Below are positions 735 through 6,646 of a DNA stretch of 11,023 nt, one piece after another. A model generated the notes under the pieces. It had not been told where the DNA came from and ran no database searches. It worked only from the letters and a program-made list of their open reading frames with translations. The stretch lies in UHGV virus genome UHGV-0053823, one strand, 5' to 3'. The number at the start of each line of letters is the position of its first letter. The first letter of the stretch is position 1. The position numbers were made by a program, and so were the translations under genes. This stretch comes from a virus.

Positions 735-1784
735 TTACCCGAGCACGCCGGTTGCAAAGGCGTGATCAAGAAAACGAAAAATTAAATCAACCTGGGAACC
801 ATGCTTTTCTTCGAACGCCAGCGGATCCGCATGAAGTTCGTTGTGATGTTCCCGGCACAACGGTAGCGTGAAAATATCGTGGGCCTTTGTTCCCATCCCT
901 CCCTGACCGTGACCAATCAGGTGATGGGGATCGTCGGCTGGCTGACCACAACACGCACACGGCTGTGTCTTCACCCAGCGCGTATATTTCTCATTTACCC
1001 AACGGCGACGTTTAGGTCGCCTCATGAAAGATTCCGGAGACTCTGGATCAACGGTGATGCTTACCACCGTCTTTTCCTGTGATGGGTTTTGTTGCTGGTG
1101 GGCGTGAGGCAACGGTGCAAGATTTTTTGTGCGCTGTTTCAATATGCTGGTGGCGGTCTGCTCTCCCGGTACGATGTCGCTTTCGCGGTACAAGGAGCAG
1201 ATTTTTTCCGCACGTAACCCCAGAGAACGACGTAATACTGCCTCCGGAAGCGCGTCCGCCACCTGATTGCGGACCGCCCACCAGGATAATTCAGCCAGAG
1301 ATAATTCACGCTCCTGCGTACCGCTTATTGCGTGACCGATGACGTCAATCATCCATGCTGACAGGTTTTGATGAGCAAGTTGCTCAAGTGATTCGGATGT
1401 CTGGTCACGCAGCTGGTTGTCGCAGTGCCAGCACAACACCATTGCGCCGGTACCATAACGGTGAATAACGGTTTCGCTGTGATGATAATCGCCGTGTGGC
1501 CACTGGCAGGATTTAATATGGCGCAACAGCCAGTCAGACAATGCACCAGCACCACCAGCAGCACGAATTACCCGTGCGTTACTGAAAAACGGCAGCAATG
1601 TTTTGTCTTCCACCAGCGGCTGGCGAACGGCAGGGACGACTCCGGATGGCAGGCCGCACATGCTTTTCGGTTCCGGCTCCACCAGCACTCGAGGATTGTG
1701 AAATACCTGCATGGATTCACGACCTGGCTTAAGGACCACCAGCCCGAGTTCCGGTACCAGAACAGGTCGAAGTAATACCCGCAC
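735..1784 (-). CDS. DUF968 family phage protein (YdfU-like) with C-terminal Cys/His HNH-like motif
   Basis: 349-aa ORF ending 13 nt before rusA. C-terminal region CACCGQPADDPHHLIGHGQGGMGTKAHDIFTLPLCREHHNELH resembles the DUF968/YdfU family found beside Q in Qin-type prophages. The start is a non-ATG codon (GTG at 1784), so the true start is uncertain. Confidence 0.6.
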   Translation of the reverse strand: MRVLLRPVLVPELGLVVLKPGRESMQVFHNPRVLVEPEPKSMCGLPSGVVPAVRQPLVEDKTLLPFFSNARVIRAAGGAGALSDWLLRHIKSCQWPHGDYHHSETVIHRYGTGAMVLCWHCDNQLRDQTSESLEQLAHQNLSAWMIDVIGHAISGTQERELSLAELSWWAVRNQVADALPEAVLRRSLGLRAEKICSLYRESDIVPGEQTATSILKQRTKNLAPLPHAHQQQNPSQEKTVVSITVDPESPESFMRRPKRRRWVNEKYTRWVKTQPCACCGQPADDPHHLIGHGQGGMGTKAHDIFTLPLCREHHNELHADPLAFEEKHGSQVDLIFRFLDHAFATGVLG

Positions 1785-3957: not shown

Positions 3958-4832
3958 GCCACCACCTCTTCGAATTTCAACTCCAATTGATCACCCCAGA
4001 TTTCACATGATTCGGAACACGAACCAGTATCAAACCGCCTGGCTTGCACCATCGCCTGATACAAATTACTGTAGTCACTGTCGGCATACATTCTGGCAAT
4101 CCCGTCAAGCGTCAGGTGGCCACGGTACATAACGTCTTTTCCTGTTCTGCGATGACCATCCCTGACGTGTTTGCCTGTAACCAGTTCATTAAAAAACCGC
4201 ATCAGACCAGGTTCGTCTTTACATGCAAGCCCCAGCTTTTGCGTTGACTTTTTGATGCAGAAAACACAGTTCCCGAGGTGCTCTGGGATTTGCAAATCAA
4301 AAGGTTGTGCTCGCCACCACCGGATAACATCCGACTTATCAAAATGTGACAGTTCGGCAAGATACCGGACGCCCGGTTTCGGTTTCAGCCTACGGTGTTC
4401 GTCCGCACGAATACCCAGCCATGTGATGTAATTCCCTCGTCCGAAATGGTCATCGCAATATTTCGTGAAAGGGGTGAGTTTTAGCCTGTCAGTACAGAAC
4501 GCGCCGCCGATGTATGGCGTGCCGTACTTTTTAACCATATCCATAAACGGTTTAAGCACCGGCATTCGCGTCTGAATATCCTTTGGTTCCCATTCCGTAT
4601 AACTATTTGGCTGCCCAAGCTCTGGATTTATATCGACCTGCAACACGGTTAGTGGAATATCCCAGAACTTCACGACTTCCCGAATAAATCGGTATGTCAG
4701 CGGGTGTTCACATCCCGTATCCATGAATATGTAATGAACGTTTTCACCTGCCTTTCTGCGTTGCTCCATAAGGTGAACGAGATACGCCGATGTACGACCG
4801 CCTGAAAAACTCACAACATGATGAGCGCTCAT
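3954..4832 (-). CDS. PAPS reductase-like / PP-loop ATP pyrophosphatase family enzyme
   Basis: 292-aa ORF with N-terminal PP-loop motif VVSFSGGRTSAYL and C-terminal cysteine pairs (NCVFC, GSCSESC) suggesting a metal or Fe-S site. ATG start at 4832. Confidence 0.7.
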   Translation of the reverse strand: MSAHHVVSFSGGRTSAYLVHLMEQRRKAGENVHYIFMDTGCEHPLTYRFIREVVKFWDIPLTVLQVDINPELGQPNSYTEWEPKDIQTRMPVLKPFMDMVKKYGTPYIGGAFCTDRLKLTPFTKYCDDHFGRGNYITWLGIRADEHRRLKPKPGVRYLAELSHFDKSDVIRWWRAQPFDLQIPEHLGNCVFCIKKSTQKLGLACKDEPGLMRFFNELVTGKHVRDGHRRTGKDVMYRGHLTLDGIARMYADSDYSNLYQAMVQARRFDTGSCSESCEIWGDQLELKFEEVVA

Positions 4833-4961
4833 TTCTTCGTCTCTTTATGGGGGATTAAACTGGCGGTAAGCTGGAATTGCCGGATGCTCACCCGTGTCCG
4901 GCGCACGTCCTCCACCTCACCCGTGGAGAACTCCTTAACCACAACCCCTAAGGAGGGTGAA

Positions 4962-5183
4962 ATGGATCAAAATGAAAAAATTAAAATCGCATTTCTTGCC
5001 GCTTCAAACGCCACGGCTTTATTTATTAACACTCCGCACTATCGCCAAAAATTAGAAGAAAAGCCGGGACTAAAGAAAACAACAATGAACCCAGAGTTCA
5101 TTTTTAAGAACGAATTTAGTCTTCACATGAAGCGCCTTTCTGAAATTCTAAATGCTCATCAAGCCAGTCCAGATCGGGATTGA
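4962..5183 (+). CDS. Hypothetical 73-aa protein on the opposite strand (candidate moron)
   Basis: ATG at 4962 preceded by a near-perfect SD (TAAGGAGGgtgaaATG, 5-nt spacing). AT-rich coding sequence unlike its flanks. The 3' end overlaps the 3' end of the convergent 187-aa gene by 68 nt. No recognisable domain. Confidence 0.35.
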   Translation: MDQNEKIKIAFLAASNATALFINTPHYRQKLEEKPGLKKTTMNPEFIFKNEFSLHMKRLSEILNAHQASPDRD

Positions 5184-5679
5184 TACGCACCAGTTCGAGT
5201 GAATATTCCATGGCATCCCTGGCGTACTCTTTCGGGATGCCATTTTCTTCAAGAATATCCTGAACTTTCTGGCGAATAACCGGAACCAGGAAAAGAAGTT
5301 TTGTTTCACGATTGCCAAGTAGTTCTTCCAGATCGCGCGTAGCCTCTTCCAGATCGCGCGTGGCCTCTTCTGGATAGCGATTGCCCGGTATTGATTCCTG
5401 CGAATTATTCAGTCTTTCAACAGAATTAATTGATTTATCGTTTTCTGTTATATTGCGTTTGATGTTTTGTTGACCTTTATTAAGGCAGCAATTTTGAATA
5501 TGGTCCTTGTGCTTTTCATTATCATAAGCATACAGCCCGACAAAAATATCCCGCAAGTTTCGGGAGATATTTTCCAGATTCGCCTTTGGTTCTTTTCTTA
5601 AATCAACCACCGATAAATGAGCTTTAAGCGTATCCGCAGCTACTTTCTGAATGTCCTCGGGTAAATCTTTAAATTGCAT
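5116..5679 (-). CDS. Hypothetical 187-aa protein with an internal EATRDLE tandem repeat
   Basis: ATG start with GAGGA SD 8 nt upstream; AT-rich, charged, probably helical protein. No family recognised. Confidence 0.55.
   Translation of the reverse strand: MQFKDLPEDIQKVAADTLKAHLSVVDLRKEPKANLENISRNLRDIFVGLYAYDNEKHKDHIQNCCLNKGQQNIKRNITENDKSINSVERLNNSQESIPGNRYPEEATRDLEEATRDLEELLGNRETKLLFLVPVIRQKVQDILEENGIPKEYARDAMEYSLELVRINPDLDWLDEHLEFQKGASCED
5325..5379. repeat. In-frame 21-bp tandem repeat (two units plus a degenerate third) inside the 187-aa gene
   Basis: CTTCCAGATCGCGCGTAGCCT followed by CTTCCAGATCGCGCGTGGCCT (1 mismatch), then a partial third unit CTTCTGGATAGCG. Encodes the repeated EATRDLE heptad on the minus strand. 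Confidence 0.8.
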
Positions 5680-5755
5680 AATATATCCTCATAGAACGGT
5701 GTATTTTCTCGTGAAATGTGAGCGATATGTCGTGACGTCCCTGTCACAGATTTCA

Positions 5756-6577
5756 TCAGACTGAGAATGTGCCGATGAAGGTTAAGATATCTGCTTCTTC
5801 GAAACGCTCTTTCAGCAGGTCACGGAACTCTTTGGCAATTTCTTCTTCCGCAGCTTCAATGCGCACGATACGTAGTACCAGAACAGGTTGCTCGCTGGTC
5901 AGAATACTTAGACGCAGGGTGAACTCACGGTTGCTCAGGCCCTCGAATGGGATGCATTCAAAGCGGAAAGTGGCAGGCATGATTTCCTTACTTTTAGCCT
6001 CCACTGATTCCATAACTGAGCGGCTACCGCTGAAGTTTTGTTCTTCATATTCAGCACTGCGTTTTGCATCGATAGTCAGACGACGGACAGCAGAGATAGC
6101 CTGTTTGATATCCAGTACATTACCGTCGCTGTCATAGGCCGTGAGGAAGTCGGCCCAGTCTTCCAGCCATTCAGCGAGAGATTTCTGGAGTTGTTTTTTG
6201 CCGTCCACGTCACGTAATGCGCGATATGGTGATGTGGCTTTCAGTTCCAGCAGTGCCTTGTTGTCAGCATGTCCTGGTTGATCCAGAGTGCCGATATTGA
6301 ACACAGTGACCGCTTTCATCGTTTCCGCGTTAATGAAGCAACGAGAGAACCCATCGACATAACCTTTGCTGTATTCAACAAAGTCATCAATACTGGTTGT
6401 GGTCATGACTCCACGGAAACGAAAGCGTTCTGTCATGAATCGCTCCAGACTTTCAATATTTACATTGTCCGGCAATAACGTAACGGGGCATTCCGTAAGC
6501 GGCAAATTTTCACCAGAAAAAGCAGTAGTGGTGAGCTTTACAATTTCTTTAATGGCATTGCTATCTAACTGAGACAT
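5756..6577 (-). CDS. Hypothetical 273-aa phage protein (size and context reminiscent of YfdQ/DUF2303; unverified)
   Basis: Long ORF with ATG start and a weak SD; non-repetitive sequence. Family assignment is tentative, based on length and on being downstream of a roughly 115-aa gene as in the yfdP-yfdQ pair. Confidence 0.6.
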   Translation of the reverse strand: MSQLDSNAIKEIVKLTTTAFSGENLPLTECPVTLLPDNVNIESLERFMTERFRFRGVMTTTSIDDFVEYSKGYVDGFSRCFINAETMKAVTVFNIGTLDQPGHADNKALLELKATSPYRALRDVDGKKQLQKSLAEWLEDWADFLTAYDSDGNVLDIKQAISAVRRLTIDAKRSAEYEEQNFSGSRSVMESVEAKSKEIMPATFRFECIPFEGLSNREFTLRLSILTSEQPVLVLRIVRIEAAEEEIAKEFRDLLKERFEEADILTFIGTFSV

Positions 6578-6646
6578 ATATATTTACCTGAGAAATAAAT
6601 TATTTATGGTTGATATCCCCTGATGTTTTCAGGAGGGAGTGATTAT

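What the first reader, a model, noticed from the sequence alone, without database searches (positions are those of the whole stretch)
5325..5379. In-frame 21-bp tandem repeat inside the 187-aa gene
Two near-identical 21-bp units and a degenerate third encode EATRDLE-EATRDLE-EL. Tandem repeats of a multiple of 3 bp can expand or contract by slippage without breaking the frame, giving length variants of a helical repeat protein.
Basis: seen in the sequence. Interest (0 to 1): 0.4.

Follow-up and report, generated by a model that had tools for sequence, protein, structure and literature searches.

The report
Duplicated heptad in a prophage protein
A 21-base stretch inside an uncharacterised early gene of an E. 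coli lambdoid phage has been duplicated in frame, adding seven amino acids to a helix, and a few near-identical prophages carry one copy instead of two: an ordinary small length polymorphism, not a special variation system.

Summary
Window 5324-5370 has two 21-bp units, identical at 20 of 21 bases, plus 5 bases of a third. They lie in frame in the 187-aa gene 5116..5679(-) and encode EEATRDL-EEATRDL-EE (aa 104-119). The one difference is synonymous (GCC/GCT). No shuffle of the window comes close.

The window is the early-left (pL) region of an Oslovirus-type lambdoid phage, 100% identical to phage vB_EcoP_phi367 and to three E. coli prophages.

Copy number does vary. All diverged relatives have one unit. 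The window's lineage has two, on about 170 contigs. Four contigs of otherwise near-identical prophages have exactly one unit less (253 vs 260 aa). No allele with three units turned up in any collection searched.

In the single-copy form the unit is bracketed by GAAGA...GAAGA, a classic slippage substrate.

The repeat is not part of a helical-repeat protein. It is one duplicated heptad in the helix that leads from N-terminal module A into a small conserved helical module B. The protein is itself a recombinant mosaic.

The function of the protein is unknown: no Pfam family, no significant fold match, and a tiny family. The polymorphism is real but low-frequency and most likely near-neutral, so interest is low.

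The parts
5116..5679 (-). 187-aa gene of unknown function, in the pL early-left operon between the yfdQ/DUF2303 gene and the PAPS-reductase gene. Architecture: module A + linker helix + module B.
   Evidence: ORF list and translation. Annotated as a hypothetical protein in phage phi367. PHROG 1363 matches aa 1-80 (E=1e-38) and PHROG 25397 matches aa 107-184 (E=1.3e-35). No Pfam family.
5350..5370 (-). Repeat unit 1 in codon phase: GAA GAG GCC ACG CGC GAT CTG = EEATRDL, aa 104-110.
5329..5349 (-). Repeat unit 2 in codon phase: GAA GAG GCT ACG CGC GAT CTG = EEATRDL, aa 111-117. Its GCT Ala codon matches the single unit of the ST866-type outgroup.
5324..5328 (-). Partial third unit, GAAGA (within codons E118-E119). 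This is the 5-bp microhomology that brackets the 21-bp unit in single-copy alleles.
   Evidence: Single-copy sequence CCA GAAGA GGCCACGCGCGATCTG GAAGA ACTA in L007, L008, L015 and L016.
5366..5386 (-). Degenerate older unit (67% to the reference unit) encoding GNRYPEE. Its homologue, GKRQTEE, is also present in single-copy relatives.
   Evidence: the repeat finder family D1; outgroup sequences.
5395..5679 (-). Module A (aa 1 to about 95). It is shared with the A+C proteins of phages PA2 (gp25) and PhiR12_3 and of many Stx phages.
5128..5328 (-). Module B core (aa 118-184). Conserved motif R..K.L...P.(9 residues)EENGIP..Y...A, predicted as three helices. It also occurs as stand-alone 66-79-aa proteins, some of them from Salmonella.
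   Evidence: Alignments, homologue searches, AF2 model with mean pLDDT 77.
5228..5249 (-). Recombination crossover interval. On the 5' side (in coding sense) the window is identical to the KY176/L012-type A+B+C gene. On the 3' side it is identical to the P0002-type cassette.
   Evidence: Four-way DNA alignment.
4905..5249 (.). 345-bp patch, 100% identical to the P0002 locus of a Rac-like prophage (L019). It supplies the end of module B, the stop codon and the downstream DNA, and replaces module C.

Best explanation
The feature is a recent, lineage-specific, in-frame tandem duplication of 21 bp, that is one heptad (EEATRDL). It most likely arose by slipped-strand mispairing, or by unequal exchange, between two GAAGA microhomologies 21 bp apart. 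It lies in the helix (aa 104-121) that connects N-terminal module A to the conserved helical module B. The protein is an uncharacterised accessory protein of the pL early operon of lambdoid (Sepvirinae/Oslovirus) phages. Once present, the two 21-bp units are themselves a substrate for slippage, and at least one contraction back to one unit has occurred among near-identical prophages. Seven residues are almost exactly two helical turns, and the duplicated unit keeps Ala and Leu in the a/d positions. The change therefore lengthens the helix by about 1 nm without changing its amphipathic register, which is why both lengths are tolerated. Shown: the repeat itself, its frame, the 1-copy and 2-copy alleles, the microhomology, the position at a module boundary, and the helix prediction. 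Inferred: slippage as the mechanism, contraction rather than ancestral retention for the in-lineage 1-copy alleles, and near-neutrality.
For: - Repeat and statistics.
- The single difference between the units is synonymous, as expected for a young DNA duplication and not for convergent protein periodicity.
- All diverged module-B relatives have one unit: EEAVRDLEKLLG in the ST866/STEC1589 type, NEFIRDLEKLLG in P0002, and likewise P0004, P0005 and P0023.
- Two units occur in three sub-types of the window lineage: the 187-aa type, and 260-aa types with two different C modules.
- One-unit alleles occur only within one sub-type. They carry the unit-1 marker GCC, whereas the outgroup codon GCT sits in unit 2. 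This favours secondary contraction.
- The 1-copy and 2-copy alleles L016 and L012-14 are identical over the ~550 bp upstream and about 200 bp downstream of the indel.
- The GAAGA(16 nt)GAAGA bracket is visible in the single-copy alleles. The outgroup has GAAGA...GAAAA, so the lineage's K-to-E change made the microhomology perfect.
- AF2 predicts a helix over aa 104-121 in both models. In the module-B model, pLDDT is about 83 over the repeat.
- Heptad register 4 puts A106, L110, A113, L117 and L120 at a/d positions.
- Census: about 170 contigs have 2 units, 4 have 1 unit, and none has 3.
Against: - The direction of change (contraction versus retained ancestral single copy) rests on one synonymous marker and on parsimony across sub-types.
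- The 1-copy allele sits on two flanking haplotypes. Over 6.5 kb, however, L016 is closer to L015 than to L012. One event plus recombination therefore cannot be separated from two events.
- Neutrality is untested, because the protein's function is unknown.
- In one allele (L009-L011) both units carry the same T-to-A change while keeping the adjacent GCC/GCT marker. Simple slippage does not explain this.
Confidence: 0.8

Rival explanations
1. This is a contingency-type hypervariable locus. The repeat expands and contracts at high frequency, so a phage population always contains several protein-length variants, for example to escape or retune an interaction with a host factor.
For: Length variants that differ by exactly one unit exist among near-identical prophages, on two flanking haplotypes. 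Extra point variation occurs inside the units, including the same T-to-A change in both units.
Against: Only two units are present, and the unit is long (21 bp). Only states 1 and 2 were seen, and none of about 175 contigs has 3 or more. The exact 187-aa protein sits unchanged on 134 contigs. Three complete genomes and one phage genome are 100% identical across the region. Scans of IMG/VR, metagenomes and GTDB representatives found only two 2-copy matches. An in-frame unit cannot switch the gene on or off.
Confidence: 0.07
2. The repeat is ordinary coiled-coil heptad periodicity, or a low-complexity charged helix, and not a DNA duplication.
For: The unit is exactly 7 residues with Ala and Leu at a/d spacing, in a predicted helix.
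Against: The units are identical at 20 of 21 nucleotides, including nearly all synonymous positions. The self-match is far beyond every shuffle. Relatives with the same helix have one unit.
Confidence: 0.02
3. The repeat matters at the DNA level. Each unit carries a GATC, so the duplication creates two Dam sites exactly 21 bp (two helical turns) apart. Such a pair could bind SeqA or otherwise affect replication or transcription of the pL region. The coding consequence would be incidental.
For: GATC occurs at 5331 and 5352, 21 bp apart. GATC is under-represented in the window, 24 found against about 43 expected.
Against: The GATC follows directly from the conserved Asp-Leu codons (GAT CTG), which are present in every single-copy relative. 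No promoter-like or terminator-like site is at the repeat. Nothing in the data ties copy number to regulation.
Confidence: 0.03
4. The repeat, or its copy-number difference, is an assembly or sequencing artefact.
For: The 1-copy alleles come from draft short-read assemblies.
Against: The whole array is 42 bp, shorter than a read, so assemblers do not collapse or inflate it. The 2-copy form is identical in complete genomes and in a Nanopore plus Sanger phage genome. The 1-copy form recurs in three NCBI assemblies (and one Logan run) and on two haplotypes.
Confidence: 0.02

Closest known systems
In-frame coding minisatellites / VNTRs in bacterial and phage genes (short tandem duplications made and removed by slipped-strand mispairing between direct repeats)
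   Same: The unit is a multiple of 3 and the units are head to tail. Microhomology lies at the unit borders. Close relatives carry alleles that differ by exactly one unit, with the reading frame preserved.
   Different: This is the minimal case: 2 units, and only alleles 1 and 2 were seen. Copy-number change is rare. It is not in a surface or repeat-rich protein.
Phase-variable contingency loci (simple sequence repeats in Neisseria, Haemophilus, Campylobacter and some phage tail-fibre or modification genes)
   Same: A tandem repeat inside a gene that can change copy number by slippage.
   Different: Contingency loci have many copies of units of 1-8 bp and switch expression by frameshift or promoter spacing, at high frequency. 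None of that applies here.
Heptad insertions and deletions in coiled-coil or long-helix proteins (stutter-free length changes of whole heptads)
   Same: Exactly one heptad is gained or lost. The a/d register is preserved (A and L) and the region is predicted helical.
   Different: The helix is short, about 18 residues with the duplication. No evidence of coiled-coil oligomerisation was obtained.
Mosaic accessory (ea / nin-type) genes of lambdoid phages: PHROG 1363 (module A) and PHROG 25397 (modules B+C)
   Same: The HMM matches are strong, and the gene occupies the same slot after yfdQ/DUF2303 in the pL operon. Modules are shuffled between phages in the combinations A+C, A+B+C, N'+B+C, D+B and B alone.
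   Different: The window protein is an A+B recombinant that has lost module C, and it carries the heptad duplication that most family members lack.

Membership tests
In-frame coding tandem-repeat polymorphism (VNTR-like) | Head-to-tail repeat whose unit length is a multiple of 3, lying in frame | tested here: met
   Period 21, 2.2 copies, in frame in gene 5116..5679(-).
In-frame coding tandem-repeat polymorphism (VNTR-like) | Alleles that differ by whole units among close relatives | tested here: met
   253-aa against 260-aa proteins. A clean 21-bp indel in L007, L008, L015 and L016 against L012-L014, with otherwise identical gene sequence.
In-frame coding tandem-repeat polymorphism (VNTR-like) | Several allele sizes (three or more states) in the population | tested here: not met
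   Only 1 and 2 copies were found in the 15-member 90% cluster (about 175 contigs), 5,426 complete E. coli genomes, 50,697 phage records, IMG/VR, metagenomes and GTDB representatives.
Phase-variable contingency locus | Long tract of short units (1-8 bp), or a unit that shifts the frame or the promoter spacing | tested here: not met
   Two units of 21 bp, in frame, inside the coding sequence. No promoter-like site at the repeat.
Phase-variable contingency locus | High-frequency variation within clonal populations | not testable with these tools
   This needs deep sequencing of a lysogen or lysate. Across assemblies the 2-copy allele is stable: 134 contigs carry the identical protein.
Coiled-coil / heptad-repeat protein | Helical segment with hydrophobic a/d periodicity | tested here: inconclusive
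   A helix is predicted over aa 104-121. A106, L110, A113, L117 and L120 fall on a/d positions. This spans only about 2.5 heptads and no coiled-coil predictor was available.
Coiled-coil / heptad-repeat protein | Oligomerisation through the helix | not testable with these tools
   No multimer modelling or experiment was available.
   No Pfam repeat family matched. The rest of the protein is non-repetitive. Fold searches gave nothing at E<0.8.
PHROG 1363 / PHROG 25397 (phage proteins of unknown function) | Significant match to the family HMM | tested here: met
   E=1e-38 for aa 1-80 and E=1.3e-35 for aa 107-184. The 260-aa relative matches PHROG 25397 over its full length, E=1.2e-90.

The most novel reading that the evidence does not exclude
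The number of heptads acts as a tunable spacer between two interaction modules (A and B) of a pL-operon host-takeover or anti-defence protein. On this reading, copy-number changes, together with the concerted T-to-A change seen in both units of one allele, are selected to retune how the two modules engage a host target. The short repeat would then be a small adaptive 'length dial' rather than neutral slippage debris.
Probability: 0.06. Interest if true: 0.45.

Novelty: new member of a known kind. Interest (0 to 1): 0.15.

Why it matters
It matters little by itself. It is a clean example of how slippage at a 5-bp microhomology creates, and later removes, one heptad in a phage protein helix. It also marks a module boundary in a heavily recombined accessory gene of EHEC-associated lambdoid phages. 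Practically, the 21-bp indel and the module swaps could serve as fine-scale markers for typing closely related Oslovirus-type prophages. The protein family (modules A, B and C) is uncharacterised, tiny and restricted to enterobacterial prophages. Any functional study of it should take into account that natural alleles differ in the length of the linker helix.

Tried and rejected
- Pfam: no family for the protein, its 260-aa relative, P0002, P0030 or the antisense ORF.
- PDB sequence search: only noise (osteocalcin, E>0.4).
- AF2 on the whole protein with 26 sequences: pLDDT 46.8, unusable apart from secondary structure.
- AF2 on the module B region: pLDDT 77. Foldseek against PDB and BFVD gave no hit with E<0.8. 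The faint sigma-70 region-4 hits (probability 0.16 or less) were rejected as noise. The third fold search was not spent.
- Exhaustive HMMER search of 1.84 billion representatives: only 20 relatives, none named.
- Profile search with module B: 7 clusters, all hypothetical.
- Plasmid collection: no match.
- Pattern scans able to detect 1, 2 or 3 units: IMG/VR gave two 2-copy hits; metagenomes and GTDB representatives gave none.
- Excess point variation in the repeat: I considered claiming this. Hand counts from the alignments are small (2 of 7 amino-acid variants in 14 of about 150 residues), so I did not test it formally and do not claim it.
- Two independent contractions: I considered claiming this because the 1-copy allele sits on two haplotypes. 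L016 and L015 are 98.7% identical over 6.5 kb, so one event plus recombination is equally possible.
- Literature: the phi367 paper (PMC12502783) does not discuss this gene. No paper on in-frame repeats in prophage genes matched the search terms.

Full report
**Where the window comes from.** Window 4800-6000 is 100% identical to a prophage of E. coli O157:H7 strain 7.1_Anguil and to phage vB_EcoP_phi367 (PV189406; Sepvirinae, Oslovirus). That phage is an inducible, stx-negative podovirus isolated from a clinical EHEC strain (PMC12502783). In the annotation of the phage record the region is the leftward early (pL) operon. On the minus strand it runs ral, kil, gam, recT/bet, exo, ssb, yfdP-like, yfdQ/DUF2303, then the 187-aa gene, then PAPS reductase and small ea-type genes.

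**The observation.**
- Tandem Repeats Finder reports 5324-5370, period 21, 2.2 copies, 96% matches.
- The repeat finder gives units at 5324-5344 and 5345-5365 (95%) and a degenerate 5366-5386 (67%).
- The gene 5116..5679(-) translates to 187 aa, with ...GNRYP-EEATRDL-EEATRDL-EELLGNRETK... at aa 99-127.
- The units differ at one base (GCC versus GCT, both Ala).
- A self-match of 26 positions at lag 21 with at most one mismatch compares with mean 12 and maximum 16 in 100 dinucleotide-preserving shuffles.
- The repeat is therefore real, in frame, and at the stated place.
- The 'third unit' towards EL is only GAAGA. The 67% unit on the other side (GNRYPEE) has a counterpart, GKRQTEE, in relatives that lack the duplication, so it is older sequence and not part of this event.

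**What the protein is.** It has no Pfam family.
- PHROG 1363 matches aa 1-80, and PHROG 25397 matches aa 107-184 at profile positions 13-91 of 166. The protein is therefore modular.
- Relatives show several combinations:
  - Phage PA2 gp25 (147 aa) and PhiR12_3 (158 aa) are A+C.
  - E. coli JNEC-KY176 has a 260-aa A+B+C protein.
  - ST866/STEC1589-type prophages have a 166-aa short-N+B+C protein.
  - P0002, P0005 and P0023 join a different N-terminal module to B, with or without C.
  - P0037 is a distant A-like+B protein. P0030 and P0040-43, some of them from Salmonella, are stand-alone B modules of 66-79 aa.
- The B core is R..K.L...P.(9 residues)EENGIP..Y...A.
- The family is tiny. Only 20 representatives were found among 1.84 billion proteins, and none is named.
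- The EEATRDL unit sits immediately N-terminal to the conserved B core, in a stretch that is not conserved in distant B modules. It is effectively in the A-B linker.

- Every diverged B-containing relative has one unit: EEAVRDLEKLLG, NEFIRDLEKLLG, NEFMRDLEKLLG, NEFIRNLEKLLG.
- The 90%-identity cluster of the window protein has 15 members, which align as follows:
  - The 187-aa type (P0006, seen on 134 contigs, and its single-substitution variants) has two units.
  - The 260-aa types (P0007, P0008, P0010, P0011), the N-terminally shorter 164-aa calls P0009 and P0014 with the same C module as P0011, and P0001 (its own cluster) also have two units.
  - P0015 (253 aa) and P0013 have one unit.
- At the DNA level, L007, L008, L015 and L016 lack exactly 21 bp and keep the full reading frame (253 aa in all four). 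P0013 was only a shorter start call.
- Over the ~550 bp upstream and about 200 bp downstream of the indel, L016 is identical to the two-unit loci L012-L014. L007, L008 and L015 carry another upstream haplotype. Over 6.5 kb, however, L016 is 98.7% identical to L015 and 97.3% to L012. One contraction plus recombination and two contractions therefore cannot be told apart.
- No three-unit allele exists in the cluster. A pattern able to match 1-3 units found two 2-unit loci in IMG/VR and nothing in the metagenome or GTDB-representative collections.
- Among 5,426 complete E. coli genomes, four carry the two-unit gene and ten carry the single-unit outgroup gene. Plasmids have none.

**Mechanism and direction.**
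- The single-unit in-lineage sequence reads CCA GAAGA GGCCACGCGCGATCTG GAAGA ACTA. The 21-bp unit is bracketed by a 5-bp direct repeat, the usual substrate for slipped-strand duplication.
- The outgroup has GAAGA...GAAAA. The lineage's Lys-to-Glu change (EKLLG to EELLG) made the microhomology perfect, which is my inference.
- The outgroup Ala codon is GCT. In the two-unit alleles GCT is in unit 2 and GCC in unit 1, and the in-lineage one-unit alleles carry GCC.
- The two-unit state is spread over three sub-types and the one-unit state over one.
- Together these points favour duplication first, then a T-to-C change in unit 1, then a later contraction that kept the 5' part of unit 1. This is an inference and is not proven.

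**Structural reading.**
- The whole-protein AF2 model is poor (pLDDT 46.8) but places a helix at aa 104-121.
- The model of aa 96-187, built with 12 sequences, has mean pLDDT 77. Its helices fall at local 8-26, 28-50, 55-71 and 76-87, which are aa 103-121, 123-145, 150-166 and 171-182. pLDDT is about 83 over the repeat.
- In heptad register the repeat puts A106, L110, A113, L117 and L120 at a/d positions.
- Adding or removing seven residues changes the helix by two turns without changing its amphipathic phase. This explains why both alleles persist.
- Foldseek against PDB and BFVD gave no significant match, so the function of module B stays unknown.
- From its position in the pL operon, I infer a role as an accessory early protein in host takeover or anti-defence. 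This is not shown.

**Rival readings.**
- A contingency-type hypervariable locus is unlikely. There are two long units, only two states, about 98% of contigs at one state, and no frameshift potential.
- Pure coiled-coil periodicity is excluded by the nucleotide identity and by the 21-bp indel alleles.
- A DNA-level role for the paired GATC sites (5331 and 5352) is unsupported. The GATC derives from conserved Asp-Leu codons that are present in all single-unit relatives.
- An assembly artefact is excluded. The array is shorter than a read, and both alleles recur in independent assemblies.

**Other findings.**
- The 187-aa gene is itself a recombinant. From its 5' end down to window 5228 it is identical to the KY176/L012-type A+B+C gene. 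From 5249 down to about 4905 it is 100% identical to the P0002 cassette of a Rac-like prophage, where that gene lies between N and kilR. The exchange lies in the conserved ENGIPKE-coding stretch and removed module C.
- The patch brings a plus-strand 73-aa ORF (4962..5183) with a strong Shine-Dalgarno sequence. This ORF overlaps the 3' end of the gene convergently and has no family match.
- One allele (L009-L011) has ACG-to-GCG in both units while keeping the adjacent GCC/GCT marker. L017 and L018 have the change in unit 2 only. This could be a very short conversion tract or a parallel mutation, and it remains unexplained.

**Verdict.** Slippage-type length variants do exist, but this is a minimal, low-frequency, probably neutral heptad duplication in a linker helix. 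It is not a helical-repeat protein and not a variation system. It is a new instance of a well-known kind of event, and interest is low.

Noticed in passing
window 4905-5249 (crossover 5228-5249): The 187-aa gene is a recombinant. Its 5' two-thirds are identical to a 260-aa A+B+C gene (KY176/L012 type). Its 3' third plus about 210 bp downstream are 100% identical to the P0002 cassette of a Rac-like prophage, where that gene lies between N and kilR. The exchange lies in the conserved ENGIPKE-coding stretch and deleted module C.
   Followed up: yes
window 4962-5183 (+): A 73-aa ORF lies on the strand opposite to the pL operon, with a strong Shine-Dalgarno sequence (AAGGAGG 5 nt before the ATG). 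It overlaps the 3' end of the 187-aa gene by 68 nt in convergent orientation. Gene callers predict it in several assemblies. It has no Pfam or PHROG match, and it travels with the P0002-type patch.
   Followed up: partly
L009:3361, L010:2412, L011:2487 (repeat region); L017, L018: One allele has the same ACG-to-GCG (Thr-to-Ala) change in both repeat units while the adjacent GCC/GCT marker stays different. A second allele has the change in unit 2 only. This suggests either a very short conversion tract between the units or a parallel mutation.
   Followed up: partly
window 5309-5329 and 5378-5398: A 21-nt direct repeat at 76% identity flanks the tandem array (coding E-E-L-L-G-N-R and E-S-I-P-G-N-R). 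The outgroup shows the same pattern (MMGKR ... LLGYR). This may be the trace of an older duplication in the N-terminal extension of module B.
   Followed up: no
window 5210-5219 / 5234-5243: A perfect 10-nt inverted repeat (ATGGCATCCC / GGGATGCCAT) lies inside the module B coding sequence. One arm falls in the recombination crossover interval.
   Followed up: no
window 6569-6606 and 1281-1308: Two further short tandem repeats were reported. One has period 19 and 2.0 copies, at the start of the yfdQ/DUF2303 gene and the intergenic DNA upstream. The other has period 15 and 1.9 copies, inside the 349-aa ORF 735..1784(-).
   Followed up: no
whole window: GATC (the Dam site) is under-represented: 24 sites against about 43 expected from length. 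Two of them lie in the repeat, exactly 21 bp apart.
   Followed up: no
L005/L006 1-660: In ST866-type prophages the single-copy B+C gene lies in a different neighbourhood. It follows DUF1627 and DUF977 genes and is near a TumE-family toxin-antitoxin pair. The module B gene therefore moves between slots of different lambdoid prophages.
   Followed up: no
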